A stretch of 64,000 nucleotides of DNA from Eubacteriales bacterium (GTDB lineage: Bacteria > Bacillota > Clostridia > Oscillospirales > CAG-272), in the NCBI GenBank assembly GCA_045649045.1, contig JAZRPF010000043.1, positions 459 through 64,458 of the forward strand. Reading direction: 5' to 3'. The notes under the pieces are model-generated. The model saw nothing but the letters and a program-made list of their open reading frames with translations, did no database searches and had not been told where the DNA came from. The stretch's first letter is position 1, and the number at the start of each line of letters is the position of its first letter. This document shows, piece by piece, positions 5,758-60,693 of this stretch. The position numbers and the translations under genes were made by a program.

Positions 5758-5832
5758 TGGTGACCCGTACGGGAATCGAACCCATGTTACAGCCGTGAAA
5801 GGGCCGTGTCTTAACCTCTTGACCAACGGGCC
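5758..5832 (-). tRNA. tRNA-Glu (anticodon UUC), CCA encoded
   Basis: GGCCCGTTGGTCAAGAGGTTAAGACACGGCCCTTTCACGGCTGTAACATGGGTTCGATTCCCGTACGGGTCACCA. Clean cloverleaf, near-identical to the Bacillus tRNA-Glu as I remember it. Confidence 0.95.
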
Positions 5833-5909
5833 TGGTAGCGGAAGTCGGACTTGAACCAACGACCTGTCGGGTATGAACCGAATGCTCTAGCCAACTGAGC
5901 TATTCCGCC
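5833..5909 (-). tRNA. tRNA-Met, elongator type (anticodon CAU), CCA encoded
   Basis: GGCGGAATAGCTCAGTTGGCTAGAGCATTCGGTTCATACCCGACAGGTCGTTGGTTCAAGTCCGACTTCCGCTACCA. The anticodon loop TTCATAC and G1-U72 match elongator Met. A tRNA-Ile2 (lysidine) identity is not strictly excluded. Confidence 0.9.
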
Positions 5910-17913: not shown

Positions 17914-17991
17914 TGGGATATAGCCAAGTTGGTTAAGGCACAAGACTTTGACTCTTGCATTTCGCTGGTTCGAGTCCAGCTATCCCAGCCA
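17914..17991 (+). tRNA. tRNA-Gln (anticodon UUG), CCA encoded
   Basis: TGGGATATAGCCAAGTTGGTTAAGGCACAAGACTTTGACTCTTGCATTTCGCTGGTTCGAGTCCAGCTATCCCAGCCA. It has the U1-A72 pair typical of tRNA-Gln. The D-loop is somewhat long and the variable region is 6 nt by my fold (78 nt total). Confidence 0.9.
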
Positions 17992-32326: not shown

Positions 32327-32403
32327 AGATTCATTTGCCGGAATAAAACTCACATCAAAACGAAAAGCGAGCTTATGGCATGTACTCTTAAGGACAGTAA
32401 TTT

Positions 32404-32439
32404 AAAAGGCTGAACGAAATCAATCGTTCAGCCTTTTTT
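32404..32439 (+). terminator. Terminator after the gtrA-like gene
   Basis: AAAA-GGCTGAACG-aaatcaat-CGTTCAGCC-TTTTTT. Confidence 0.85.
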
Positions 32440-32544
32440 CGTAGGGCAATTCACGAATCACCCGTTTATAAGGTCTTAGGATTATCCTAAATCACCGGAA
32501 GACGGTACACACCTTCCCTACTTGTTACAGTACAGGACAAAGAG

Positions 32545-33384
32545 TCATTTTTCAATCATCCCATTAACAGCATTTAATCCGTAGTTCTTCAAAATTTTTA
32601 CTGCATTTTCTACATCTTCATATGTGGTTTCGGTATTCGGAAGTGTGTTCTTCATCGAAAGGGCTTGATATCTGGATGCAGCAAAGTGATGATATTGTAA
32701 TACCTTCACCTTTTCTATACCTTTCTTATTGCTCAAAAACTCACCGATTCGGTCACACTCACAATCATTGTAACCTTTGACAAGCGGATATCTGATTTCA
32801 ATCTTACAATTCCTTTCAGACAGAAATTTTAAATTTTCCAGTATCAACTGATTATCCCTACCTGTGCATTTTTTATGCACATTTGAGTCAATCGCTTTTA
32901 TGTCATATAAGAATTTATCGGTAAAAGGAATTATGGATTCTATAATCTCTTGTTTTACGAAACCGCATGTATCAATATAGACACTTATGCCTTTTTCCTT
33001 AAGTTTATATGCAAGTGCAATGGCAAAATCAGGTTGTGCAAGACATTCACCGCCGGACAATGTAACACCGCCACCACTGTTCCTGAAAAAAACTTCGTCT
33101 TGTATCAGCGTATCCACAAGGTCATTTACCTCATATTCGGTGCCGTACAGCATAAGTGCATCAGCAGGACAACTTTGCGCCGTTATATCGTTATGTTCAC
33201 CTCTACAAATACCGCATTGTACACATTTATTCCTGTAAAAAGCAATTTGTTTTTCAAACGATATACTTTCCGGATTGTGACACCAAATACATTTCAGTGG
33301 ACAGCCTTTAAAAAATACGGTTGTTCTAAGTCCGTCACCGCCGTGCGATTCCATTCGTTTTATTCCTGAAATCAGACCTTTCAT
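32545..33384 (-). CDS. Glycyl-radical enzyme activating enzyme (radical SAM)
   Basis: ...HGGDGLRTTVFFKGCPLKCIWCHNPES... (CxxxCxxC), an additional Cys-rich ferredoxin-like insert (CVQCGIC...C), and the GGGVTLSGGE SAM motif. The ATGA overlap couples it to the GRE gene. Confidence 0.9.
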   Translation of the reverse strand: MKGLISGIKRMESHGGDGLRTTVFFKGCPLKCIWCHNPESISFEKQIAFYRNKCVQCGICRGEHNDITAQSCPADALMLYGTEYEVNDLVDTLIQDEVFFRNSGGGVTLSGGECLAQPDFAIALAYKLKEKGISVYIDTCGFVKQEIIESIIPFTDKFLYDIKAIDSNVHKKCTGRDNQLILENLKFLSERNCKIEIRYPLVKGYNDCECDRIGEFLSNKKGIEKVKVLQYHHFAASRYQALSMKNTLPNTETTYEDVENAVKILKNYGLNAVNGMIEK

Positions 33385-35447
33385 CGTATTGACCTCGCTA
33401 TAAATTCATCCTTCTCTTTTTCACTGAGTGATGAAAACAATACGTTCCAACCGCACAATCTCACCTGTAAGTTAGGATACTTTTGAGGATTGAGTTTAGC
33501 CTCTTTCAGAATTTCTGTATCAAGCACATTATAATGCACAGCAAATCCACCAAGTTCAAAATATGTTTTGAGCGTAGAAACAAATGTTTTCAGGCCATTT
33601 TCGCCTTGAACAGCTGACGAATGAAGGTCTATATCCACAATTGTTCCGTTGGGAGTTTTTGAAGAATCAATAGATGCAACAGAGAGAAGATGTGCTGTAG
33701 CGCCATCACGGTCAGCACCAAAGGTTGCACTCGTATTCTGCGAAAGTGTTTCTTTTGCATATCTTCCGTCGGCAGAGGCTGCTGTTTTCTCACCAAAATC
33801 CCAGCGCCAGTTAATGGAAATTAATCCAAGTCTGTACACCCCGCCTTTCACATTTGGTTTTCCACTTATAGCACCAGAAAGGACATTGACAATATCTTTT
33901 GCAAGTTCATTGGTTTTCTTGTCGTTCATTCCAAATTTAGGGAACTTGTTCTTAATCAGCAAACGAAGAGCTTCTTGACCATCCCAGTTGGATTTTAATA
34001 TTTCTATCAATTCATTTAAGGTCAGGATTTTATCTTCAAACACTGCCTTTTTTATTGCAATAAGAGAATCTACAGCTGTTGCAAGACCAATTGCGTTAAC
34101 TGATGAATTGTTGTATTTTGCAGTATAATCACAGTATAAATCTCCGCCTTTTTCCAACGCAGAGGTATAAGTTCCTGAAAGTATGGGCGCAGAATGAACA
34201 TGTTTATAATGCGCTTCACAAATATCAGTAATTTTCATTGCACAATTACACATATACACAAGCTGTTTTTTAAACTCGGTATATAATGCATCATAGCTGT
34301 CAAAGCATCCGCTGTTTTCCGGTCCGACCTGCTTATCTGAGAGCATTGTTTTACCGTGGTTGAGCGCAAGCTCCAATGCAAGCGGAACATTTACTCTTGC
34401 ATTGCTCGAGCATGTCAGCTCGCCATCTCCGCCGCATTCATAACAACCGACAACATGATAGTTCACTGCATCTTCGTGCTTTTCTCCCATTTTTTCAAGA
34501 GACTCTATGATTTTTGCGTCCGACATAAATACTATACTGTTATTTCCGTTGCGAACGGCATCAAGAGCATTACTTATTATGTCGTCAGGTGTGTTTTCCG
34601 AACACAAAAGATGGAATTTTGTGTTGTTGGTATTTGCTATTGTATATGCATCCAAAATCAAATATGAAAGCTTATTGATTAAACTGTTCCCGGAACAATC
34701 TGTTCCGCCAAGAGCAAAAGGAATATTGGCAGGAGCATTCAATCGGTCTATCTCTTTGAGAAAGTCAATAAGTAGCTCTTTGACACTGCTTTCATCCTCA
34801 TCTTGACAGAAAGGATCAAAAAGGCTGTCAAGTCGGCCGAGTGTTCTTAAAAATGTCCCTTCAAACATAAGTTGCAACACATAATAAATTATCGTTGTCT
34901 GCATCGCTTCAAATAAATTGGAGGGAGCTTTTTCTGTCAGGTTTGCGATGCCTGCCGCCATTTCTGCCTTTCCGTTTTCTTTGGCGACTTCTGAAGCTCG
35001 TTTCATAAAACGCAAAGCAGCATCATAAACTTTTGATATTTCGTTATAAAATCTCTGTTTCTTTTTGTCATCTTTGTTCTTTTGAGCATAGTCGGATATT
35101 CTTTTTCTCAAGCCTGAAATACCTAAGGAAATTACACTTTCCCATTCCGCTGTAGTATGGCTGAAATCATACATGCCTGTGTATGCAAGGGTTTCATCGC
35201 CTACAGAAAGGTCAGTTTCAACAATTTCAGGACGATAATACTGATTTAATCTTTTCCAGTAAACTTCGTGTTGCACCTCGGCGCAATTGACTTCAACAAA
35301 GAAACGGTTATTTTCCGGCACTGTAATTTCACAGTTTTCGAGAAGATACACAATGTTTTGACAATCCAGCTCTAAAACATCGTCGTTTTTTCCAACTTCA
35401 AAATTTTGCATAGCATATTCAAGCAATTCTTCTCTTCTTAATGACAT
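33381..35447 (-). CDS. Glycyl-radical enzyme of unknown substrate (short, ~688 aa)
   Basis: Cys-loop HVVGCYECGG (G-C-x-E) at codon 34443-34445. C-terminal glycine-radical motif ...YPNLQVRLCGWNVLFSSLSEKEKDEFIARS, with Gly at 33450-33452. I prefer ATG 35447 (AAAGGA RBS) over the track's GTG 35456. Confidence 0.85.
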   Translation of the reverse strand: MSLRREELLEYAMQNFEVGKNDDVLELDCQNIVYLLENCEITVPENNRFFVEVNCAEVQHEVYWKRLNQYYRPEIVETDLSVGDETLAYTGMYDFSHTTAEWESVISLGISGLRKRISDYAQKNKDDKKKQRFYNEISKVYDAALRFMKRASEVAKENGKAEMAAGIANLTEKAPSNLFEAMQTTIIYYVLQLMFEGTFLRTLGRLDSLFDPFCQDEDESSVKELLIDFLKEIDRLNAPANIPFALGGTDCSGNSLINKLSYLILDAYTIANTNNTKFHLLCSENTPDDIISNALDAVRNGNNSIVFMSDAKIIESLEKMGEKHEDAVNYHVVGCYECGGDGELTCSSNARVNVPLALELALNHGKTMLSDKQVGPENSGCFDSYDALYTEFKKQLVYMCNCAMKITDICEAHYKHVHSAPILSGTYTSALEKGGDLYCDYTAKYNNSSVNAIGLATAVDSLIAIKKAVFEDKILTLNELIEILKSNWDGQEALRLLIKNKFPKFGMNDKKTNELAKDIVNVLSGAISGKPNVKGGVYRLGLISINWRWDFGEKTAASADGRYAKETLSQNTSATFGADRDGATAHLLSVASIDSSKTPNGTIVDIDLHSSAVQGENGLKTFVSTLKTYFELGGFAVHYNVLDTEILKEAKLNPQKYPNLQVRLCGWNVLFSSLSEKEKDEFIARSIR

Positions 35448-35452
35448 AACAA

Positions 35453-36319
35453 TCACATTCCTTTCAATATAAATTCTTCTGCACCCACCGCCATGTTTTC
35501 CACCATAAAAACTCCCCCGTCATGTTCGCCTGCCGGACTATCCTCACCCGCTGTTGTAACAAACATAATAGATTTGTCCTCACCACCAAAAGCGACGCTT
35601 ATGATGCGATAAACAGGAAAGTAAATTTCATTAATAATCTCACCTTGAGGGTTATAACATAACAATGGTCCTCCCGGTCTGCAACATGCGACCCAAAGGT
35701 TTCCCTCAATATCTGTAGCCATGCCGTCAGGCAGGCAACCGGAGGCAAACACTTTTTTGTTGCTAAGCATGCCGGTTGTTTTATCATAGTCATATACATA
35801 CACGCAGTCATGGTCAGTTACAGCAAAATACAATTTATCCAGTTGAGGAGAAAACCGTATTCCGTTGGGTGTGTTTCCTGTTTCCTCTTCAAGACAAACT
35901 AAATCTGCCTTATTATCCAACAACCAAAACGAGCCGTGCTCTGCCCGTTTATCAGGCTCGAAATAATGCGTTGCAAGCATACCGCAATATATGCGTCCTT
36001 TTGAGTCTGCAATCACATCATTAAACAGTGCCTTTTTAAAATCCTTGTATAATACCGGCTCCGAATAGGGCTTCCATTTCCAAATTTTTCCATTATCGGC
36101 AAACAAAAGCATATAATCGTTGTCTGTAAAAACCATACTGCCGATTCTTCCTATATTCAGTTGAAAACATTCAAAATCATTCACATCATCATTGACCTTT
36201 TTTCTATATAGCTCGCCATGGAATCCATGCCAGTAAAGAAATTTATCTTTCTTATCCCACATTGGCGATTCTGATAATTCACAATGACAATCGGCAAATA
36301 GTTTGATGTCTTTTTTCAT
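35453..36319 (-). CDS. SMP-30/gluconolactonase/LRE-like beta-propeller protein
   Basis: ...CELSESPMWD...FNDVIADSKGRIYCG...TPNGIRFSPQLDKLYFAV...PDGMATDIEGNLWVA...VAFGGEDKSIMFVTTA. AAAGGAGG RBS before ATG 36319. Confidence 0.8.
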   Translation of the reverse strand: MKKDIKLFADCHCELSESPMWDKKDKFLYWHGFHGELYRKKVNDDVNDFECFQLNIGRIGSMVFTDNDYMLLFADNGKIWKWKPYSEPVLYKDFKKALFNDVIADSKGRIYCGMLATHYFEPDKRAEHGSFWLLDNKADLVCLEEETGNTPNGIRFSPQLDKLYFAVTDHDCVYVYDYDKTTGMLSNKKVFASGCLPDGMATDIEGNLWVACCRPGGPLLCYNPQGEIINEIYFPVYRIISVAFGGEDKSIMFVTTAGEDSPAGEHDGGVFMVENMAVGAEEFILKGM

Positions 36320-36490
36320 ATTAATTTTTCCTCCTTTACAATACAATTATATTTCACTTCAACAAAATAGTCAATATGAATTAACGACTATATTATACTT
36401 TTCGAAATAAATTAACCAAGTATATTGATTTTTAGCCTAGAATATATTATAATATTAGAAACAATACAAATCCAAAAGGAAGAACAAACT

Positions 36491-37282
36491 ATGGAAAAAT
36501 CGGATATATTATCAACCGACTTTTACCTGAAAAAACTGATCTGCGTCATCAAATCCGAGATGAACAACTGTACAAAAACAATCTATGTCAACGGAAGGCA
36601 CAGCCATGCTTATGTATATATTTTGTCAGGCTCCTGCAGTTACAATTTTAATAATGAATATGAAATCACCGTCAATACGGGCGATGTTCTTTATCTTGCA
36701 CAAAATGCAGAATATACAATGAATGTCCATACACCAAATTACCGATATATATACTGTGATTTTGAGCTTAATGATAATGTTGTCAGGAAAAGCAATGTGT
36801 ATACTCCAGAAAACACTTCCGATGTAGAAAATCAGTTTATCAAGCTTATAAAAACCTACAATATGTTTTCAATGGCATCTTTTTCTAGGTGCATATCTTT
36901 GATATATCATATTCACAGTATGCTTTTAAAAACAAAAGAAACGATCAATTTAGAAAAGGGAACAGAAAACAAAATTGTGAACGCCAGGAAATATATTGAC
37001 ACTCATTTTTCTGACAATATGCTCAGCATCTCGTCGCTTGCCGAGATGGCCGAAATCAGTGAGGTTTACTTTAGAAAACTGTTTAAGTTGCAATATCATA
37101 TGTCACCGGCACAATATCTTACATCTTTGAGAATAAAAAAAGCAAAACAACTCCTTGGTTATAGTTTTTTAGCATTAGAAGAATGTGCAAATCAATGTGG
37201 CTTCTCAACAGTGCAATATTTTTGTCGTGTGTTCAAAAACTCCACCGGTATGACACCGACAGAGTATAGAAACAAAAAATAA
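36491..37282 (+). CDS. AraC family transcriptional regulator (cupin sensor plus HTH), divergent from the GRE operon
   Basis: C-terminal ...ISSLAEMAEISEVYFRKLFKLQYHMSPAQYLTSLRIKKAKQLL...CGFSTVQYFCRVFKNSTGMTPTEYR. Confidence 0.9.
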   Translation: MEKSDILSTDFYLKKLICVIKSEMNNCTKTIYVNGRHSHAYVYILSGSCSYNFNNEYEITVNTGDVLYLAQNAEYTMNVHTPNYRYIYCDFELNDNVVRKSNVYTPENTSDVENQFIKLIKTYNMFSMASFSRCISLIYHIHSMLLKTKETINLEKGTENKIVNARKYIDTHFSDNMLSISSLAEMAEISEVYFRKLFKLQYHMSPAQYLTSLRIKKAKQLLGYSFLALEECANQCGFSTVQYFCRVFKNSTGMTPTEYRNKK

Positions 37283-37318
37283 TAGGGTTGCAGAAATTTT
37301 TCTGCAACCCTATTTTCG
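37281..37318 (+). terminator. Terminator after the AraC gene
   Basis: 15-bp perfect stem AATAGGGTTGCAGAA/TTCTGCAACCCTATT followed by a T-rich tail. Confidence 0.8.
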
Positions 37319-37435
37319 AAAACTGCCCTTAAGAACACTCGTTTTATTGCTCGCTTTTTGTTTTCAAGAAGCATAAACCCCTGCTTCCCTTTTTGCTATT
37401 CTTGTGCTTTCGTTCTATGCGAATGCTCCTGCCTC

Positions 37436-54402: not shown

Positions 54403-56232
54403 TTATTTGTAAAGAGGACCGAATGCGGCACAAGCGCGGTAGTCCTGACCTTCCTTGTCTGCACCAAATGCATTCCATACAGCAGGACGGAAAATGTCAT
54501 CCTCAGGAACATTATGCATACAAACAGGAATGCGGAGCATCGAGCACATTGTGATAAGGTCGGCACCGATATGACCGTAGCTGATTGCGCCGTGGTTTGC
54601 GCCCCAGTTGCTCATGACCTCGTAAGCGGTCTTGAAGGGACTTCCCTCCTTGCCGTCGCAACGAGGAGCAAACCAGGTGCAAGGCCATGTCGGGTTGGTG
54701 CGTTCCATCAGCTTATCGGAAACCTCGTCGGGAAGCTTGACAGTCCATCCCTCTGCAATTTGAAGAACAGGGCCGAGTCCCTTCACAAGATTCAAGCGAA
54801 TCATGGTGCAGGGCATCTCTGCGCGGGTTGTATAGTGGCTGGAGAATCCGCCGCCGCGGAAGTTATCAAAGCCTGCCTCGCACCATACGGTCGCGTCGGT
54901 CATCTTCTTGATATCTTCATCAGTCACTTCCCACCACTTCTTCATGGTGGCATTGCCGTTCTCGTCAGTGCATTCGCCGCAAGCATCAAGGCAAGCTGCG
55001 CCCGAGTTCAAGAGGTGAATGATACCGTTCGATTCAGCCGCCTTGCCTTCAAGCTTATAGCCTGTCACACGCTCGGTTGCCTCACCTGACCAATATGTAC
55101 GGACATCAGCAAAAATCTGTGCGCGGTGTGTCAGAAGGCGCATAAAGAGCATACCAAGACCGTTTAATACATCATTCTCGGTTGCCAGGGTGTACGGCCC
55201 ACGCGCGCCCTCGTAGTCAAAGGTCGAGGACAGAAGTGCCTCGGGGTAGTCGCAGTTCGGCCAATGGTCTGTCCATTGACGCTGTCCCTGAAAGCCACCT
55301 GCGATAGCGTTGTGGCCAACCTTCTCTTCCACAAATGCAACGGGCAGATTCTTGTTGCCTGCCATCAAATCCTTGATGATGCAGTACATCTTGACGGTAA
55401 ACTCCCACTGCTTCTCTTTTTCTTCGGGAGTGAACTTAATCTTATGCTCATGACCGAGGAACGGAACAGACTCGGGGTTATCGTCTCTGCCTTCCTTGCA
55501 GTGCTCCTTTGTCCATGCCAGTGCCTTCTGATATTCTTCTTCGTTATAAATGCCCTCTTCCATACGGCGCAGGATTTCCACCTCGTCAACAGACTCTACG
55601 CGCATACCGAGGTAGGATTCCATGAAGTCCTGGTCGATGATAGAGCCTGCAATACCCATGCACTGTGAGCCAATTTGCAGGTAGGACTTACCGCGCATGG
55701 TAGCAACCGCGATAGCCGCACGGCCGAAGCGCAGAAGCTTCTCCTTCACATCCTCGGGAATCTCGGTGATCTGGTCGCGGTCCTGTACCTCATGACCATA
55801 AATACCAAACGCAGGCAAGCCCTTCTGTGCATGACCTGCCAGAACAGCCGCCAGATAAACGGCACCGGGACGCTCTGTACCGTTAAAGCCCCACACGCCC
55901 TTGATGGTCTGGGGATCCATATCCATCGTCTCGGAGCCGTAGCACCAGCAGGGTGTGACGGACAGAGTGATGTCAACGCCTTCCTTCTTGAACTTGTTTG
56001 CACAAGCGGCAGCCTCGGGCACACGACCGATAGAGGTGTCAGCCATCACGACCTTCACATGCTCACCGTTCGAGTAGAACAGATTTTCTTCAAAAAGCTT
56101 CTTGGCGGCGTTTGCCATCGCCATAACCTGTGCTTCCAGGCTTTCGCGCAGCATCATCGGGCCACGGCGACCATCAACGATGGGGCGAATGCCAATGACG
56201 GGATAATCACCAACATATCTGTTTTTTGCCAT
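54403..56232 (-). CDS. fucI: L-fucose isomerase
   Basis: ...[13 protein letters not shown]...[18 protein letters not shown]... closely parallels E. coli FucI as I recall it. 609 aa. Confidence 0.92.
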
Positions 56233-56379
56233 TGTATCATACCTCTTTCTTATAAATTTTCAGTTCTTTAGGAAGTCACTTTCTTCCATTATAGTCATTA
56301 TAACATAAATACGAAAAAAGCACAACCGTCTTTTGTAATTTTTTTGCATTTTTTTGCCACAAACGGCACCGTCTGTTGA

Positions 56380-56422
56380 GAATAGTCAAAACCACCGGCC
56401 AAGCCGGTGGTTTTGACTATTC
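56380..56422. repeat. 20-bp perfect hairpin at the 3' end of the sigma-like gene and left edge of the recombinase module
   Basis: GAATAGTCAAAACCACCGGC-caa-GCCGGTGGTTTTGACTATTC. Overlaps the stop codon by 2 nt. No U-tract on the minus strand. Confidence 0.7.
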
Positions 56423-56789
56423 ATGATCTCTTGCTTTTTGTGCGCTCACACTCAACTGCTTCTTTTTCTCTTATGTAGGCATTCATTCCGTGCATGATAG
56501 GAAAAAGCCTGTTAGGCGCACTTAAATGTTTTTGTACCATGCGGTCAAATTGATAGATATAGCTTAACCCAACACCAAAGGCACTGGCAATTTCGGCGCT
56601 TGACATCTGTTTTTGATAGCGCATCTCGATGAATCTTTGTTCCCTTTCTTTGAGTGTGGAAATTGCATATTCAATGCCTCGTAAAATATCATCTGTAATA
56701 CGAGACGGCACGCTGACTCTCTCGCTGTTTCTGTACTGAATCGCCAGTATCAAGTTAATCGGATATTCTTCCTTCAAAAACTGCCGCAT
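56421..56789 (-). CDS. Sigma-70 region-4-like HTH protein
   Basis: ...LKEREQRFIEMRYQKQMSSAEIASAFGVGLSYIYQFDRMVQKHL.... ATG at 56789, directly after the upstream stop (TGAcATG). Confidence 0.7.
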   Translation of the reverse strand: MRQFLKEEYPINLILAIQYRNSERVSVPSRITDDILRGIEYAISTLKEREQRFIEMRYQKQMSSAEIASAFGVGLSYIYQFDRMVQKHLSAPNRLFPIMHGMNAYIREKEAVECERTKSKRS

Positions 56790-56790
56790 G

Positions 56791-57060
56791 TCACACCGTT
56801 TCCTTTGGATTTTTTTCTTTTCCAAGGTCCTGTTTCAAAATTCGCCTTGCGATATATTCAAGTTCTCTTTTTGACATTGCACAAATTTTATCATTTTTTA
56901 TTTGCCGATAGCAATTCTCGCATAATTGCCCACACCCCGAAACATAAAACCTTCGCATATCAACGGGTACGTCATAAGTATAGCCTGTTTCATCTCCGCA
57001 CAAAACACATCTGTCAGGCTCATTCATCGTTTGAATAGCAATCTTTTCTTTTATTTTCAT
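56791..57060 (-). CDS. Small Cys-rich (zinc-ribbon-like) protein
   Basis: MKIKEKIAIQTMNEPDRCVLCGDETGYTYD...SGCGQLCENCYRQ... (CxxC...CxxxCxxC). Confidence 0.6.
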   Translation of the reverse strand: MKIKEKIAIQTMNEPDRCVLCGDETGYTYDVPVDMRRFYVSGCGQLCENCYRQIKNDKICAMSKRELEYIARRILKQDLGKEKNPKETV

Positions 57061-57129
57061 GTATTTTCACCTTTTTGAGCTTCACGCAATGCTTGCCTCG
57101 GTGGGCGTCAGCAATTAAAAGATATGAAT

Positions 57130-57154
57130 ACAACATAATTCTCATTATGTGGTA
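57130..57154. repeat. Left inverted repeat (lox-like site) of the candidate invertible segment
   Basis: ACAACATAATTCTCATTATGTGGTA is the reverse complement of 57421-57445 at 24/25 positions (22 contiguous). Confidence 0.9.
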
Positions 57155-57196
57155 GTTAAAAAAAGTAAATAAGTTTTTACAAGATTTACATATGTT

Positions 57197-57225
57197 ATTA
57201 TACTATCAATTTACCCAAAAATCAA
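57197..57225 (-). promoter_or_regulatory. Near-consensus promoter inside the IR-bounded segment (TTGATT-17-TATAAT), currently facing the 57060<-56421 genes
   Basis: Minus strand reads gggTTGATTtttgggtaaattgatagTATAATaac. An 8-1-8 palindrome AAAGCAAA-T-TTTGCTTT (57239-57255) lies just upstream of the -35. Confidence 0.7.
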
Positions 57226-57420
57226 CCCTTTTCTACAAAAAAGCAAATTTTGCTTTGTAAAGTTTTTTAATTTTTAATCATTCAGAATGAAAAATTGCAT
57301 ACCAAAACACCCCCCTGCCCTAGCTTTTTTGGAAAGGAAAGCATTGGGGGGCTTTTTGCCGTTTGGCTATGAAGCGAAAAAGAAAGAAATGCCTTTTGTT
57401 TTTTCTTTTTCGCTTGATTT

Positions 57421-57445
57421 TACCACATAATGAGAATTATGTGGT
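57421..57445. repeat. Right inverted repeat (lox-like site)
   Basis: TACCACATAATGAGAATTATGTGGT. Begins 10 nt beyond the recombinase stop codon. Confidence 0.9.
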
Positions 57446-57455
57446 TTTTCTTTTT

Positions 57456-58292
57456 CTATAAAACAAGACCAAGCTGCTCGATTTTGCGTCGATGCTCTCT
57501 GCCACTTGACATAATATAGATTCTTGTCGTTTCGATACTGCTGTGACCGAGAATATCCGCGAGCTTGGCAATATCCTTTTCAATGCCATAAAAAGTGCGC
57601 GCAAAGAGCTTGCGGAGATTGTGCGGAAAGACCTTTTTGGGATTGACTCCCGCCGCCTCGCATAATCCCTTCATATCTGCCCATATATTCGAGCGATTCA
57701 TCGGCTTTCCTTTCCGCGTACAGAAAATGACACCTGTGGCAATGCCTTTCTTCTTTGCGTAATCAAGCAGATGCCCTCTCAATTTTCTTGGAATTAGAAT
57801 TGTCCTTGTTTTATTTTTGCAGGATACAACGACACTTCCCCGCCTGACCGACTCTACCGTAAAGAATTGAAGCTCGGATACGCGAATACCCGTGCCGCAA
57901 ATTGTCTCAATCAAAAGACAAAGGCGGGGCTTTTTTCTCGATGCATCAAGCAATCTCATATATTCCGCCTTGGTCAATTCCTTTTCCTCTGCCTGATAGA
58001 TTTCCCGCTGAATTTTCAAGATTTTCACCTTGCAATCCGCCCATTTCAAAAACGAAAAAAGACTGTTCATTGATGCAATTTTGGAATTGACCGAGCGCGG
58101 CAAATATCCCTTCTGTATCAAAGCTTGCTTATATGCAAGCGCTCTTTCTTTTGTGAGCTCCTGTCCATCAAGATAGAGCATCAGATCCCTTGCATCCTGC
58201 GTGTATTTCTTCACGGTAGCAGAGGACTTCTCCTCGTTCATCAAATGCTTTTGAAAATTCCGAATCTTATCACTTGTCAATTTTTTCATCAT
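57456..58292 (-). CDS. Tyrosine recombinase (phage-integrase family)
   Basis: ...IETICGTGIRVSEL... (Arg I), ...HNLRKLFA... (H-x-x-R), ...LGHSSIETTRIYI (His/Tyr). GAAAGGAAGG RBS before ATG 58292; the track start 58427 is spurious. Confidence 0.9.
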   Translation of the reverse strand: MMKKLTSDKIRNFQKHLMNEEKSSATVKKYTQDARDLMLYLDGQELTKERALAYKQALIQKGYLPRSVNSKIASMNSLFSFLKWADCKVKILKIQREIYQAEEKELTKAEYMRLLDASRKKPRLCLLIETICGTGIRVSELQFFTVESVRRGSVVVSCKNKTRTILIPRKLRGHLLDYAKKKGIATGVIFCTRKGKPMNRSNIWADMKGLCEAAGVNPKKVFPHNLRKLFARTFYGIEKDIAKLADILGHSSIETTRIYIMSSGREHRRKIEQLGLVL

Positions 58293-58395
58293 AATAACCT
58301 TCCTTTCATCACCTTTATTCTGCCTCACGCCGACCGATTTATTTACAATTTCTTCTTTACCATTTGCCTTATATTGCATTTTCGCAGCATGGCTC

Positions 58396-58424
58396 TTGCT
58401 TTTTTTGAAAAAACAGAGTATAAT
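58396..58424 (+). promoter_or_regulatory. copA promoter (TTGCTT-17-TATAAT)
   Basis: cTTGCTTtttttgaaaaaacagagTATAATcat. ACActTGTA at 58438-58446 lies between the -10 and the RBS. Confidence 0.5.
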
Positions 58425-58458
58425 CATAGGTGAATAAACACTTGTAAATGAGGTTTTT

Positions 58459-60693
58459 ATGAAAAGTAATTTTTCGGTCAGCGGTATGATGTGTGCCGCC
58501 TGTGCATCTCATGTAGAAGGTGCTGTCAAACGCATTGCGGGTGTTCAGGATGTCACGGTCAGCCTACTGACAAATTCTATGACTGTGATGCACACTTGCC
58601 CTGCGTCCGATATTGAAAATGCAGTTTCGCATATCGGCTATGAAGCCGCATTGCTCGAAAGAAAGGCAAGCGGAAGCAGCTTCACACACATAGGCACACA
58701 GGCAAAAAACGAAAGGAGCGCAACCGTGCGAATGCTCCTATCAGCCACGCTCTCACTTGTTCTTTTTGTCATTTGCATGGGACATATGCTGGGGATGCCG
58801 CTTCCGCACATAATAAGTCCAATGCACCACCCCGTCAATTATCTATTGATACAGGCGACTTTGGCAACCCCTGTCCTCTTCCTGCAATTCGGTTATTTCC
58901 GCCGCGGTACAGCCGCCCTGCTCCGTCTGCGTCCTTCGATGGATACACTTGTGGCTCTGGGATCGGGTGCCGCCTACCTGCATGGCATGATTGTCTTGGT
59001 GCTTGCCCTGCTTTCGCAGCTTGATGCGCACCATGTTCATGTTTATTTCGAGGCTTCTGCCATGATTTTGGCATTGGTCAGCATCGGCAAACGCTTGGAA
59101 GGCAGAGCGAAAGACAAGACAGCCGATGCCATTCGCGCACTTGCCGCCCTCTCGCCCAAAACCGCCGCCGTGCTTTCAGAGGATGGAAGCGAAATGACGG
59201 TCAATACCGAAAACCTGACCGTCGGTATGCACATTGTTCTTCGTGCGGGCGACAGCATTCCTGCTGATGGCAAGGTGGTTGCAGGTCACGGTGCCATTGA
59301 CGAATCGTCACTCACGGGCGAGAGCCTGCCAATTGACAAAAAAGAGGGTGATACAGTCACCTCGGGCAGCATGATGAAGGACGGCTACCTCGTCTTTTGT
59401 GCCGAGCGCGTCGGTGACGAGACCTCGCTTTCAGAAACCGTCCGTATGGTTGCAGAGGCGGCAGCCACCAAAGCACCCATCGCCAAAGCCGCCGATGCGG
59501 TGGCGGCAATATTTGTCCCCGTTGTTCTCCTGATTGCTCTTATCAGCTTTCTTGCCTTTTTCATTGTAACAGAGAGCCTTTCGACCGCACTCTCGCACCT
59601 TATCAGCGTGCTTGTCATTTCCTGTCCCTGCGCACTCGGACTTGCAACGCCAACTGCGATTATGACAGCGACAGGGCGCGGTGCCGAGCTTGGTATTCTT
59701 TTCAAAAGTGCCGAATCACTTGAAGCGCTCGGTCACATCAATACGGTGGCATTTGATAAAACAGGAACACTCACCAATGGTAAAATGGCACTTGCCGACT
59801 ATCGCCTGACAGACGGAACTGAGCCGAGCGAAGCGGCACGCGTTCTCTATGCACTTGAAAGTCAATCCTCTCACCCGATTGGTGAGGCTCTCGCGGCACA
59901 CTTTGCCGCCTATGCAGGTGCCGAGGCAAAGGGCTTCTCTGTCATTGAGGGCAAGGGCGTCTTTGCGCGCGTTGACGGGCAAAAGTGCATGGCAGGCAAT
60001 CTCCATCTGTTTGAAGATGATTTGGAATTTGACATTTCCCCGCTTCGCGCCGATTTTGACCGCATGACCGCGGCAGGAGCAACCGCAGTGTTTCTCTCTG
60101 CCGGCGAGCGCCTGCTCGGTATCTTTTCGGTTGCCGATACCCTGCGCCACGAGTCGCCCGATGCCATTTCCGCCCTGCACCGCCTCGGCATTAAGACCTG
60201 TATGCTGACAGGCGACAATACAGGCAGTGCCGCATACATGGCAGAAAAGGCAGGTATCGCCGAATTTCATGCCACACTCTCGCCAAAGGGCAAAGCACAG
60301 CTGATTGAAGCCCTTGCAAAAGACGGCAAAACTGCCATGGTCGGTGACGGCATCAACGATGCTCTGCCGCTTGTTTCGGCTGATGTCGGAATTGCGGTAG
60401 GGGCAGGCACCGATGTGGCAATTGCTTCGGCTGATGTTGTACTGCGCCGTGAAACACCGCTCGATGTTGTCAATGCGATTCTGCTTGGTCGCGCAACACT
60501 TCGGAATATCAGGCAAAATCTCTTTTGGGCGCTCGCCTATAATTCGCTCTGTATTCCCATTGCCGCAGGCGTATTTGCGCCGCTCGGCTTGACGCTTTCC
60601 CCCATGCTTGCCGCTGCCGCTATGAGCCTCTCCTCGCTTTTTGTGGTCGGCAATGCATTGCGTCTACGCCGATTCAAGCCGATTCTCCGATAA
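58459..60693 (+). CDS. copA: Copper-translocating P1B-type ATPase
   Basis: N-terminal HMA domain (GMMCAACASHVEGAV), CPC motif (SCPCALGLATP), DKTGTLT, and GDGINDA. Confidence 0.95.
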   Translation: MKSNFSVSGMMCAACASHVEGAVKRIAGVQDVTVSLLTNSMTVMHTCPASDIENAVSHIGYEAALLERKASGSSFTHIGTQAKNERSATVRMLLSATLSLVLFVICMGHMLGMPLPHIISPMHHPVNYLLIQATLATPVLFLQFGYFRRGTAALLRLRPSMDTLVALGSGAAYLHGMIVLVLALLSQLDAHHVHVYFEASAMILALVSIGKRLEGRAKDKTADAIRALAALSPKTAAVLSEDGSEMTVNTENLTVGMHIVLRAGDSIPADGKVVAGHGAIDESSLTGESLPIDKKEGDTVTSGSMMKDGYLVFCAERVGDETSLSETVRMVAEAAATKAPIAKAADAVAAIFVPVVLLIALISFLAFFIVTESLSTALSHLISVLVISCPCALGLATPTAIMTATGRGAELGILFKSAESLEALGHINTVAFDKTGTLTNGKMALADYRLTDGTEPSEAARVLYALESQSSHPIGEALAAHFAAYAGAEAKGFSVIEGKGVFARVDGQKCMAGNLHLFEDDLEFDISPLRADFDRMTAAGATAVFLSAGERLLGIFSVADTLRHESPDAISALHRLGIKTCMLTGDNTGSAAYMAEKAGIAEFHATLSPKGKAQLIEALAKDGKTAMVGDGINDALPLVSADVGIAVGAGTDVAIASADVVLRRETPLDVVNAILLGRATLRNIRQNLFWALAYNSLCIPIAAGVFAPLGLTLSPMLAAAAMSLSSLFVVGNALRLRRFKPILR

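What the first reader, a model, noticed from the sequence alone, without database searches (positions are those of the whole stretch)
32439..37320. Low-GC island: glycyl-radical enzyme, activase, SMP-30/lactonase-like protein and divergent AraC regulator
Three minus-strand genes are tightly coupled: an ATGA overlap at 33381-33384, and a 5-nt gap between the SMP-30 stop codon and the GRE start at 35447 to 35453. They are divergently paired with an AraC-type sensor-regulator. The block is bounded by terminators at 32404-32439 and 37281-37318.

Composition drops sharply. Hand counts give 25/60 and 21/60 G+C inside the block against 32/60 in uvrA. The left edge carries an odd palindromic stretch (GTAGGG at 32442...CCCTAC at 32514, enclosing TAGGATTATCCTA).

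I do not know of a characterised GRE pathway that uses an SMP-30/gluconolactonase-type beta-propeller partner. The characterised ones I recall are PFL, glycerol/propanediol dehydratases, CutC, HypD, IslA, HPAD/IAD and benzylsuccinate-type enzymes.

Inference: this is an inducible, horizontally acquired anaerobic catabolic module for an unidentified substrate, possibly a sugar lactone or cyclic ester.
Basis: partly seen in the sequence, partly recalled or inferred. Interest (0 to 1): 0.7.

Follow-up and report, generated by a model that had tools for sequence, protein, structure and literature searches.

The report
Mobile cassette with unclassified glycyl-radical enzyme

Summary
Activase (32545-33384, -), glycyl-radical enzyme (GRE, 33381-35447, -), SMP-30/SGL protein (35453-36319, -) and divergent AraC regulator (36491-37282, +) are tightly packed, low in G+C (0.375 against 0.475 for the rest of the window) and bounded by two perfect hairpins.

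The GRE fits no characterised family. It falls far below every NCBIfam equivalog cut-off and is 18-25% identical to all solved GREs. It keeps the radical Gly666, Cys335-x-Glu337 and the His of the dehydratases. It belongs to a large unstudied clade with the loops GCYE and R[VL]CGWN.

Across 66 species-level loci the conserved unit is AraC + GRE + activase. AraC is present in 48 of 66 and the activase in 57 of 71. The SMP-30 gene lies between them in only 3 of 66, and one of those is a deletion remnant. However, related and unrelated SMP-30 genes have joined operons of three GRE subfamilies in different gene orders, so a facultative functional link is plausible.

The cassette keeps about 0.37 G+C in hosts of 0.38-0.55, sits in unrelated contexts, and ends in 17-nt inverted repeats. 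Substrate unknown; I favour a dehydratase or isomerase acting on a sugar-derived hydroxy acid.

The parts
32355..32372 (.). Host-side half of a split terminator-like palindrome (TCAAAACGAAAAGCGAGC), just outside the cassette.
   Evidence: When joined to 37349-37366 it folds into a 14-bp hairpin flanked by an A-run and a T-run: -14.8 kcal/mol, z = -4.0 against shuffles. It lies between the convergent genes gtrA-like and coaX.
32373..32398 (.). Left terminal inverted repeat of the cassette. The core is 32382-32398, reading ACTGTCCTTAAGAGTAC on the minus strand.
   Evidence: The pattern has 2 hits in the window against 0.04 expected. Both hits are at the island edges and in inverted orientation. 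The same pair flanks the cassettes of L084 and L086/L087. DNA homology between cassettes in different hosts ends here.
32404..32437 (.). Hairpin terminator of the operon, likely bidirectional, carried inside the cassette.
   Evidence: 14-nt arms, 100% complementary, 6-nt loop. A hairpin is present at the same place in L084, L085, L086 and L005, although its sequence varies.
32440..32544 (-). Conserved 3'-untranslated spacer after the activase gene.
   Evidence: It aligns across five cassettes. The hairpin GGGAAxxTG..CAxxTTCC has two sequences with both sides changed at one pair, and the hairpin TTAGGAT.ATCCTAA is kept in four of five.
32545..33384 (-). GRE-activating radical-SAM enzyme (279 aa).
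   Evidence: TIGR02494 scores 264.7 against a cut-off of 174, and PF04055 gives 1.5e-18. The CX3CX2C motif is C28/C32/C35. It overlaps the GRE stop (ATGA). An activase lies directly downstream of the GRE in 57 of 71 loci.
33381..35447 (-). Glycyl-radical enzyme (688 aa) of an uncharacterised clade. Features: Cys loop G-C335-Y-E337, Gly loop R-L-C-G666-W-N, and His97.
   Evidence: PF02901 and PF01228 both match. Every equivalog model scores far below its cut-off. The best solved relatives are HypD and glycerol dehydratase, at 23-25% identity and TM-score about 0.8. 98 of 124 full-length 50%-cluster representatives carry the GCYE loop.
35453..36319 (-). SMP-30/gluconolactonase-like (SGL) six-bladed propeller protein (288 aa). 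It is a lineage-specific insertion between the promoter region and the GRE.
   Evidence: PF08450 scores 144 bits. The metal ligands E17, N100, N152 and D198 are invariant in an alignment with pentonolactonase XacC and regucalcin. The gene is present in 3 of 66 loci, one of them a remnant. There is a 5-nt gap to the GRE ATG.
36320..36490 (.). Divergent control region.
- Operon promoter-like site on the minus strand: -35 at 36374-36369 and -10 at 36351-36346.
- araC promoter-like site on the plus strand: -35 at 36425-36430 and -10 at 36448-36453.
- A 25-nt direct repeat at 36386-36410 and 36440-36464.
   Evidence: The sites match the consensus at 11 of 12 and 10 of 12 positions. The direct repeat is 80% identical with 54-nt spacing. 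Function is inferred, not shown. G+C is 0.21.
36491..37282 (+). AraC/XylS-type regulator (263 aa) with an N-terminal cupin-like domain, divergent from the operon.
   Evidence: PF12833 gives 8.7e-21. The cupin and AraC_binding matches fall below Pfam cut-offs. A divergent AraC gene lies within 1.4 kb of the GRE in 48 of 66 loci.
37281..37314 (.). Hairpin terminator after araC, carried inside the cassette.
   Evidence: 16-nt arms, 100% complementary. It is 95-97% conserved in L084 and L086.
37322..37348 (.). Right terminal inverted repeat. The core is 37322-37338, reading ACTGCCCTTAAGAACAC.
   Evidence: It has 3 mismatches to the left core. Cassette homology ends at 37334-37364 in L086, L004 and L084.
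37349..37366 (.). Host-side second half of the split palindrome (GCTCGCTTTTTGTTTTCA).
   Evidence: as for 32355-32372.

Best explanation
The island is a discrete mobile cassette of about 4,976 bp (32373-37348) that carries a complete, self-regulated glycyl-radical enzyme system.

**How it is likely to work.**
- An AraC-type sensor is transcribed divergently. It probably binds a small-molecule inducer and switches on one operon from a strong promoter-like site.
- The operon reads SGL, then GRE, then activase, with translational coupling.
- The activase is a radical-SAM enzyme that installs the radical on Gly666 of the GRE.
- The radical passes to Cys335, which abstracts a hydrogen from a carbon bearing a hydroxyl group.
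- Glu337 (the CXE motif) deprotonates that hydroxyl, and His97 protonates a neighbouring leaving group.
- The result would be a 1,2-elimination (dehydration) or a ring-opening isomerisation of a hydroxylated small molecule.

**The SGL protein.** It keeps a full SMP-30-type metal site. I read it as a facultative helper that hydrolyses a lactone to the hydroxy acid the GRE uses. Such a step can also happen spontaneously or be encoded elsewhere, which would explain why most cassettes lack it.

**The likely substrate.** I favour a sugar-derived compound from plant or host glycans, such as an aldonic or deoxy-aldonic acid.

**What is shown and what is inferred.**
- Shown: gene identities, catalytic motifs, the conserved three-gene unit, the rarity and recurrence of SGL, and the mobility signatures.
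- Inferred: the reaction class, from motifs.
- Speculative: the substrate and the lactonase's role.
For: **GRE identity and class.**
- His97 aligns with His164 of glycerol dehydratase and the equivalent His of two propanediol dehydratases.
- C335-x-E337 aligns with C433/E435 of glycerol dehydratase and C434/E436 of HypD.
- The 2026 review states that all eliminases and isomerases keep CXE, with the Glu bonded to a substrate hydroxyl (PMC13450708).

**Distinct family.**
- Every equivalog model scores below its cut-off.
- Identity to solved structures is 18-25%, with equal TM-scores of about 0.8 to many classes.
- The GCYE / RxCGWN clade is large.

**Conserved unit and SGL rarity.** The closest cassettes lack SGL, and L004 carries a deletion remnant.

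**SGL competence and recurrence.**

**Sugar context.** The occasional operon partners and neighbours are sugar-related:
- glycoside hydrolases GH95, GH29, GH78, GH2 and GH43;
- lyxose isomerase with a PfkB kinase;
- aldose epimerase;
- ABC sugar transporters;
- Gfo/Idh/MocA and SDR oxidoreductases.

The window itself encodes L-fucose isomerase.

**Mobility.**
Against: - No substrate evidence is direct.
- No transporter or downstream enzyme is conserved with the GRE. The most frequent other neighbour occurs in 6 of 78 loci, so the sugar context may only reflect what these gut genomes are full of.
- SGL is absent from 63 of 66 loci and was deleted in one lineage. Four of six SGL relatives are not next to any GRE.
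- Aldonate dehydration does not need radical chemistry in known pathways (my own knowledge).
- The position matching Ser282 of glycerol dehydratase and Asp278 of HypD cannot be assigned within one residue, and no coordinates were available for pocket analysis.
- The model's glycyl loop is poorly predicted: pLDDT is below 50 for residues 661-688.
- No empty site, target duplication or transposase was found.
Confidence: 0.55

Rival explanations
1. The SGL gene is a functionally unrelated hitch-hiker. It was inserted by chance between the promoter and the GRE, is co-transcribed, and has nothing to do with the GRE's substrate. On this view the cassette's chemistry does not involve lactones at all.
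For: - SGL lies between AraC and the GRE in only 3 of 66 loci, and one of those is a deletion remnant.
- The cassettes closest in sequence lack it.
- Orthologous SGL genes stand alone among housekeeping genes in 4 of 6 sampled places.
- By matching contig lengths, only 2 of the top 120 sister-family clusters share a contig with an SGL.
Against: - The junction is tight: a 5-nt gap, with the GRE ribosome-binding site inside the SGL 3' end.
- SGL genes occur in operons of three GRE subfamilies with different gene orders: SGL-GRE-AE, GRE-SGL, and GRE-esterase-SGL-EamA-AE.
- One of those SGLs is only 24% identical to the window's. This is hard to get by chance.
Confidence: 0.3
2. The GRE is simply a divergent orthologue of a known enzyme, such as hydroxyproline, glycerol or propanediol dehydratase or choline lyase. 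The module would then be an ordinary known pathway.
For: - The best hits are HypD (E = 1e-70) and glycerol dehydratase.
- His, Cys, Glu and Gly are all in place.
- The host encodes L-fucose isomerase, so propanediol could be available.
Against: - Scores against cut-offs: HypD 278 against 1100; PFL2/glycerol dehydratase subfamily 285 against 678; CutC 214 against 1050.
- Identity to solved structures is 18-25%, and the enzyme is equidistant from many classes.
- Asp447 of glycerol dehydratase aligns with Ser/Cys348. The loop GHSIS of the diol dehydratases is G-T-F/Y-L-R-T here.
- The protein is about 100 residues shorter.
- There are no microcompartment genes, no proline-pathway genes and no aldehyde-handling genes nearby.
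Confidence: 0.04
3. The GRE belongs to another reaction class. For example, it could be a decarboxylase of an aryl- or alkyl-acetate, which needs only enzyme plus activase. That would fit a cassette with no conserved pathway partners.
For: - The three-gene cassette has no conserved downstream enzymes or transporter.
- Hydroxyphenylacetate decarboxylase also has a Cys-x-Glu loop (my own knowledge).
- Decarboxylases appear among the weaker structural matches.
Against: - Decarboxylase models score lowest among the PFL-like classes: 181 and 141 bits against cut-offs of 1150 and 1100.
- There is no small-subunit gene.
- The His shared with the dehydratases is invariant in the family.
- Neighbours, where there are any, are carbohydrate-related rather than amino-acid fermentation genes.
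Confidence: 0.1
4. The block is a native, vertically inherited locus. Its low G+C would reflect only local codon usage, and the end repeats would be ordinary terminator-region sequences rather than mobile-element ends.
For: - In the more distant family members the cassette's G+C tracks the host: the median difference is -0.014.
- A single copy of the end motif sits between nrdR and tyrS in L066 with no cassette attached.
- No recombinase, empty site or target duplication was found.
Against: - Cassettes with 78-100% identical GREs keep G+C 0.36-0.38 in flanks of 0.38, 0.45, 0.49 and 0.55. They lie between completely different housekeeping genes.
- DNA homology stops within about 10 nt of the inverted repeats at both ends in three contexts.
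Confidence: 0.06

Closest known systems
GRE 1,2-eliminases that cleave C-O bonds: B12-independent glycerol dehydratase (1R8W), propanediol dehydratase (5I2A, 9RCO) and trans-4-hydroxy-L-proline dehydratase HypD (6VXC)
   Same: - PFL-like ten-stranded barrel with a C-terminal glycyl-radical domain.
- Cys-x-Glu on the Cys loop.
- The His that protonates the leaving hydroxyl in glycerol dehydratase (His164) aligns with the invariant His97.
- A dedicated activase gene follows the GRE gene.
   Different: - Only 22-25% identical, and below all family cut-offs.
- About 100 residues shorter, mostly at the N-terminus.
- The Cys loop is GCYE rather than GCVE, and the Gly loop is RLCGWN rather than RVAGYS.
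- The substrate-contact positions of the known enzymes (Ser282 and Asp447 of glycerol dehydratase, Asp278 of HypD) are not kept.
- There is no microcompartment and no pathway genes.
GRE isomerases YbiW and PflD (ring opening of 1,5-anhydroglucitol-6-P and 1,5-anhydromannitol-6-P) and HplG
   Same: - CXE-type GREs acting on sugar-derived cyclic substrates (PMC13450708).
- Structural matches are as good as those to the dehydratases: 8YJO has TM-score 0.78.
- One distant family member (L075) sits in an operon of GH2, GRE, activase, lyxose/mannose isomerase and PfkB kinase.
   Different: - 20-21% identity.
- No phosphotransferase or aldolase genes are conserved nearby.
- The L075 arrangement occurs once, at 45% identity to the window's GRE.
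SMP-30 / regucalcin and the pentonolactonases XylC (7PLB) and XacC
   Same: - PF08450 propeller.
- Metal ligands equivalent to SMP-30 Glu18, Asn103, Asn154 and Asp204 are invariant.
- In oxidative sugar pathways these lactonases are helpers for a step that also runs spontaneously (my own knowledge).
   Different: - At most 34% identity. The window's protein belongs to a separate Clostridia subfamily at 48-88% identity.
- Arg101 of SMP-30, kept in XacC and regucalcin, is Leu here.
- No sugar dehydrogenase or aldonate dehydratase of the usual kinds is linked.
Mobile insertion cassettes and other transposase-less elements bounded by inverted repeats, such as the IS231-derived MICs of Bacillus cereus (recalled from my own knowledge, not tested)
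   Same: - Passenger genes lie between short terminal inverted repeats, with no recombinase inside.
- The same element is found in unrelated genomic contexts.
   Different: - No cognate insertion sequence with these ends is known to me or was found.
- No target-site duplication is evident.
- The element appears to sit inside terminator-like palindromes, which is not a described MIC property.

Membership tests
Glycyl-radical enzyme superfamily (PFL-like) | PFL-like barrel domain plus a C-terminal glycine-radical domain | tested here: met
   PF02901 scores 299 bits (cut-off 24.3) and PF01228 scores 72 bits (cut-off 22.2). Foldseek gives TM-score about 0.8 to more than 50 GRE chains.
Glycyl-radical enzyme superfamily (PFL-like) | Radical glycine in an RVxG[FWY] motif and a catalytic Cys on the Cys loop | tested here: met
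   R663-L-C-G666-W aligns with RVAG763Y of glycerol dehydratase. C335 aligns with C433 of glycerol dehydratase and C434 of HypD. All are invariant in 25 family members.
Glycyl-radical enzyme superfamily (PFL-like) | Cognate radical-SAM activase with CX3CX2C encoded nearby | tested here: met
   TIGR02494 scores 264.7 against a cut-off of 174. The motif is C28/C32/C35. The activase overlaps the GRE stop and is adjacent in 57 of 71 loci.
Glycyl-radical enzyme superfamily (PFL-like) | A stable glycyl radical is formed (EPR) and is needed for catalysis | not testable with these tools
   Needs anaerobic reconstitution.
GRE 1,2-eliminases and isomerases | Cys-x-Glu motif on the Cys loop, with the Glu bonded to a substrate hydroxyl | tested here: met
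   C335-Y-E337 is present and invariant. The motif definition is from PMC13450708. Contact with substrate could not be tested.
GRE 1,2-eliminases and isomerases | Catalyses elimination or ring opening next to a hydroxyl-bearing carbon | not testable with these tools
   No biochemical data are available, and the substrate is unknown.
trans-4-hydroxy-L-proline dehydratase HypD (NF043068) | Whole-protein score at or above the equivalog cut-off of 1100 bits | tested here: not met
   278 bits. 25% identity to 6VXC.
Glycerol/propanediol dehydratase group (TIGR01774 subfamily) | Subfamily score of at least 678 bits, plus the diol-binding residues Ser282 and Asp447 of glycerol dehydratase | tested here: not met
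   285 bits. Asp447 aligns with Ser348, which is Cys in most members. The Ser282 region reads G-T-F/Y-L-R-T, with an alignment ambiguity of one residue.
Choline trimethylamine-lyase CutC (TIGR04394) | Equivalog score of at least 1050 bits | tested here: not met
   214 bits.
SMP-30/gluconolactonase/LRE family | SGL propeller domain | tested here: met
   PF08450 scores 144 bits against a cut-off of 26.3, covering profile positions 1-245 of 246.
SMP-30/gluconolactonase/LRE family | Divalent-metal ligands (human SMP-30 Glu18, Asn154 and Asp204, with Asn103) | tested here: met
   E17, N100, N152 and D198 are invariant across the subfamily, XacC and regucalcin. The ligand list is from my own knowledge of the SMP-30 structures.
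SMP-30/gluconolactonase/LRE family | Lactone hydrolysis | not testable with these tools
   Arg101 of SMP-30 is replaced by Leu98, so the substrate may differ.
AraC/XylS regulators | C-terminal double helix-turn-helix | tested here: met
   PF12833 gives 8.7e-21 and PF00165 gives 4e-18.
AraC/XylS regulators | N-terminal ligand-binding cupin domain | tested here: inconclusive
   Cupin_3, Cupin_2 and AraC_binding all match but fall below their Pfam cut-offs.
Transposase-less mobile cassette bounded by inverted repeats | Terminal inverted repeats at the limits of the transferred DNA | tested here: met
   The 17-nt core has 2 hits in the window against 0.04 expected, both at the edges and inverted. 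The same is seen in L084 and L086/L087. Homology ends there.
Transposase-less mobile cassette bounded by inverted repeats | Target-site duplication and an empty site in relatives | tested here: inconclusive
   No duplication is evident by eye. No empty site was found: the only gtrA relative is not syntenic, and contigs carrying the identical coaX or dut run into the cassette.
Transposase-less mobile cassette bounded by inverted repeats | A cognate autonomous element with the same ends | not tested
There is no match in plasmids or phages. A tyrosine recombinase gene lies 20 kb away at 57456-58427, but no link to it was shown.

The most novel reading that the evidence does not exclude
The GCYE / RxCGWN glycyl-radical enzymes form a new functional class. 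They would carry out a radical dehydration or ring opening of sugar acids or lactone-derived hydroxy acids in strict anaerobes, with SMP-30-type lactonases as facultative feeders. In one sub-lineage the whole system travels between gut Clostridia as a transposase-less cassette that lands inside terminator hairpins.
Probability: 0.15. Interest if true: 0.75.

Novelty: new variant of a known kind. Interest (0 to 1): 0.55.

Why it matters
Glycyl-radical enzymes of gut bacteria have repeatedly turned out to make host-relevant metabolites, including trimethylamine, p-cresol, skatole and sulfide precursors.

The 2026 review of the field stresses that whole clades remain unassigned (PMC13450708). This cassette gives a well-defined target in one such clade:
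- The family is found in at least 216 species-level genomes, and all 80 loci kept are uncultured gut Clostridia MAGs, with humans and ruminants among the named sources.
- It is a minimal three-gene unit with its own sensor, which could be used directly as a reporter to find the inducer.
- It has an occasional lactonase partner, which narrows the substrate search.

The constant-composition, repeat-bounded form also documents recent exchange of a radical-enzyme module between gut species.

Tried and rejected
**Empty-site search.**
- A metagenome scan with the gtrA-like protein found one 71% relative with no synteny.
- Exact-protein look-ups of coaX and dut found only short contigs that run into the cassette.
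- So I found no empty site and cannot call a target duplication.

**Plasmid and phage searches.** The whole cassette gave no match in either collection.

**Unbiased neighbourhood clustering of 78 loci.**
- It looked for a conserved transporter or downstream enzyme and found none. The best other cluster occurs in 6 loci.
- Pfam counts on 39 putative operon partners gave no recurrent family beyond two GH95 genes.

**Assigning the pocket residue equivalent to Ser282 of glycerol dehydratase and Asp278 of HypD.** The single-sequence and profile alignments differ by one residue. The structure tool returns no coordinates, so this stays open.

**Structure model.** It is good overall (pLDDT 82.9, pTM 0.86), but residues 545-582 and the glycyl loop 661-688 are unreliable. 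I used it only for fold comparison.

**Rejoined flanks as a terminator hairpin.** This is convincing in the window (z = -4.0). In L084 and L086 the z-score is only -0.9, and cross-joined controls fold about as well. Hairpin targeting therefore remains a suggestion.

**Literature.** No paper links a GRE with SMP-30, gluconolactonase or a lactonase as partners.

**Rfam.** There is no riboswitch or other RNA family in the region.

**The outer GTAGGG/CCCTAC arms.** I rejected these as a meaningful palindrome: they are 6 nt long, are imperfect in the other cassettes, and were not chosen by the consensus fold.

Full report
**1. What is there**

The ORF map, family scans and direct reading confirm the finding's anatomy. 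On the minus strand lie three genes:
- an SGL/SMP-30 propeller protein (35453-36319, 288 aa);
- a glycyl-radical enzyme, or GRE (33381-35447, 688 aa);
- a GRE-activating radical-SAM enzyme (32545-33384, 279 aa).

The SGL stop and the GRE ATG are 5 nt apart. The GRE stop and the activase ATG share ATGA.

An AraC-type regulator is divergent. Its real start is the ATG at 36491 (263 aa), as in the gene calls for the same sequence elsewhere.

The 171-nt intergenic region is 21% G+C. It holds back-to-back promoter-like sites matching the consensus at 11 of 12 and 10 of 12 positions, and a 25-nt direct repeat.

Perfect hairpins at 32404-32437 and 37281-37314 close the block. G+C is 0.375 inside, against 0.475 for the rest of the window and about 0.53 in the neighbouring uvrA/dut.

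**2. The enzyme is a GRE of no known family**

It has the PFL-like barrel and the glycine-radical domain. Every curated equivalog model scores far below its cut-off:

| Model | Score (bits) | Cut-off (bits) |
|---|---|---|
| HypD | 278 | 1100 |
| PFL2/glycerol dehydratase subfamily | 285 | 678 |
| CutC | 214 | 1050 |
| Sulfopropanediol dehydratases | 228-254 | 1000 |
| Arylacetate decarboxylases | 141-181 | 1100-1150 |
| PFL | 98 | 994 |

Against solved structures it is about equally far from many classes, at 18-25% identity and TM-score about 0.8. These include:
- hydroxyproline, glycerol and propanediol dehydratases;
- PflD/YbiW and HplG;
- CutC;
- the sulfolyases.

The alignments place residues as follows:
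- Gly666 (R-L-C-G-W-N) on the radical glycine;
- Cys335 and Glu337 on the Cys-x-Glu motif;
- His97 on His164 of glycerol dehydratase, where two propanediol dehydratases also have His.

All are invariant in 25 family members. The 2026 review of the superfamily states that every eliminase and isomerase keeps CXE, with the Glu bonded to a substrate hydroxyl (PMC13450708). The reaction class I infer is therefore elimination or ring-opening next to a hydroxyl-bearing carbon.

The substrate-contact positions of the known enzymes are not kept, and the protein is about 100 residues shorter.

A search of 1.84 billion representatives shows that the window's enzyme sits in a large radiation of short GREs of 680-760 aa. 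Of 124 full-length representatives, 98 have the Cys loop GCYE, and most have R[VL]CGWN at the glycine. I found no characterised member.

**3. What is conserved around it**

A scan of one genome per species found 216 relatives. The best 80 are all uncultured Clostridia from human and ruminant guts.

Mapping the four window proteins onto these loci, and clustering all neighbours without prior assumptions, gave a clear result:

| Feature | Count |
|---|---|
| Divergent AraC gene within 1.4 kb of the GRE | 48 of 66 loci |
| Median distance from AraC start to GRE start | 177 nt |
| Activase directly downstream of the GRE | 57 of 71 loci |
| Most frequent other neighbour | 6 of 78 loci |
| SGL gene between AraC and the GRE | 3 of 66 loci |

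The three SGL cases are the window's species, L007 (75% identical SGL) and L004. In L004 only the last 37 codons survive, and DNA alignment shows a clean internal deletion. The cassettes closest to the window's (GRE 83-85% identical) have no SGL.

**4. The SGL gene is nevertheless not obviously an accident**

It belongs to a discrete Clostridia subfamily at 48-88% identity. Similarity then drops to 34% or less for pentonolactonases and regucalcin.

The metal ligands of SMP-30 are invariant, but Arg101 is Leu.

I sampled six relatives at 52-62% identity:
- Four stand alone among housekeeping genes.
- Two lie in operons of a sister GRE family that is 36% identical to the window's and also has a GCYE loop. 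L098 reads AraC | SGL-GRE-activase, and L097 reads AraC | GRE-SGL.

A third, more distant GRE in L037 has an SGL only 24% identical to the window's, in a GRE-esterase-SGL-EamA-activase operon.

Matching contig lengths suggest four more SGL-bearing members of the window's family and one more of the sister family. This is indirect evidence.

Recruitment into three GRE subfamilies in four gene orders argues for a facultative functional link. The low frequency argues that the step is dispensable or encoded elsewhere. Lactone hydrolysis, which also proceeds spontaneously, would fit that pattern. This last step is inference.

**5. Hints about the substrate**

Where extra genes join the operon or lie next to it, they are mostly carbohydrate-related:
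- GH95, GH29, GH78, GH2 and GH43 glycosidases;
- a GH2-GRE-activase-lyxose isomerase-PfkB kinase operon in L075;
- aldose epimerase;
- sugar ABC transporters;
- Gfo/Idh/MocA and SDR oxidoreductases.

The window's host encodes L-fucose isomerase.

None of these is conserved, and such genes are common in these genomes, so this is weak evidence. I favour a sugar-derived hydroxy acid or cyclic derivative, with low confidence.

**6. The island is a mobile cassette**

Cassettes whose GREs are 78-100% identical keep G+C at 0.36-0.38. Their host flanks have 0.38 (L084, L004), 0.45 (L085), 0.49 (window) and 0.55 (L086). In distant family members, by contrast, cassette and host agree.

The flanking genes differ every time:
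- uvrA-dut-gtrA | coaX in the window;
- icd | ACT-DUF711 in L084;
- cellulase and NAD kinase in L085;
- homoserine dehydrogenase and aspartate kinase | sigma factor in L086.

DNA homology runs past both terminators and stops at an inverted repeat. Its 17-nt core occurs twice in the window against 0.04 expected, at 32382-32398 and 37322-37338, in opposite orientation. The same pair brackets the cassettes of L084 and L086/L087.

In the window, the DNA just outside the two repeats re-joins into a 14-bp hairpin with an A-run and a T-run (z = -4.0). That is what one expects between the convergent gtrA and coaX genes. The same reconstruction is only suggestive in the other two hosts.

Several things remain unexplained:
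- There is no recombinase in the cassette.
- I found no empty site or target duplication.
- A lone copy of the motif lies between nrdR and tyrS in L066.

The mechanism of movement is therefore unknown.

**7. Verdict**

It is wrong in treating the SMP-30 protein as its defining partner.

The thing of interest is the enzyme clade itself and its compact, sensor-equipped, mobile form. The lactonase is a useful but uncertain clue.

Noticed in passing
window 32373-32398 and 37322-37348; L084 7007-7023 and 11042-11058; L086 7005-7021 and 11082-11098: Short inverted repeats (core ACTGTCCTTAAGAGTAC) bracket the cassette just outside its two terminators in three unrelated genomic contexts. There is no recombinase inside the cassette.
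   Followed up: partly
window 32355-32372 with 37349-37366: The host DNA on either side of the cassette is complementary. When re-joined it forms a 14-bp A-run/T-run hairpin, as if the cassette had landed in the loop of the gtrA/coaX terminator.
   Followed up: partly
L066 1649-1665: A lone copy of the cassette-end motif (1 mismatch) follows a terminator hairpin between nrdR and tyrS. It lies 1.4 kb from a 49%-identical GRE that has no AraC gene.
   Followed up: partly
L093 and L094 (ending at window 37305 and 37310); L095 (ending at window 32471): Short contigs from other samples carry the identical coaX or dut genes. They all break off 38-98 nt inside the cassette edges, as expected if the assembly graph branches there because of strain variation or several copies.
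   Followed up: no
L004 9882-9992: A 37-codon remnant of the SGL 3' end lies directly upstream of a 78%-identical GRE. The rest of the gene has been cleanly deleted.
   Followed up: yes
L038 6734-16896: A Christensenella MAG has three GRE-activase pairs in tandem on one strand. Two GH43 genes, an SDR and ABC permeases precede them; an aldo/keto reductase lies within the last pair and an EamA transporter follows.
   Followed up: partly
L037 14582-20438: A second operon lies right next to the family cassette. It reads GRE (759 aa, GCYE loop), SASA carbohydrate esterase, distant SGL, EamA transporter and activase, with its own AraC gene.
   Followed up: partly
L075 7560-14647: A tightly overlapping operon reads GH2 glycosidase, GRE (45% identical), activase, D-lyxose/mannose isomerase and PfkB sugar kinase.
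   Followed up: partly
window 32545-33384 (activase residues 54-72): The activase has a single extra four-Cys motif (C54, C57, C60, C72). Its match to the family model skips about 20 positions there, suggesting one auxiliary iron-sulfur cluster rather than the usual two.
   Followed up: no
window 35453-36319 (SGL residue 98): The whole Clostridia SGL subfamily has Leu where SMP-30, XacC and regucalcin have the Arg of the N-R-F-N-D motif. This hints at a different substrate.
   Followed up: partly
window 56000-58500: A second low-G+C stretch (0.41) holds a tyrosine recombinase gene (57456-58427) and a small sigma-70 region-4 protein (56421-56825), next to L-fucose isomerase (54403-56232).
   Followed up: partly
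window 36386-36410 and 36440-36464: A 25-nt direct repeat (80% identical, 54 nt apart) sits in the divergent control region. The second copy overlaps the araC promoter-like -10 site, so these may be regulator binding sites.
   Followed up: no
window 5761-5909 and 17914-17988: Three tRNA genes. These are the only Rfam matches in the window.
   Followed up: no
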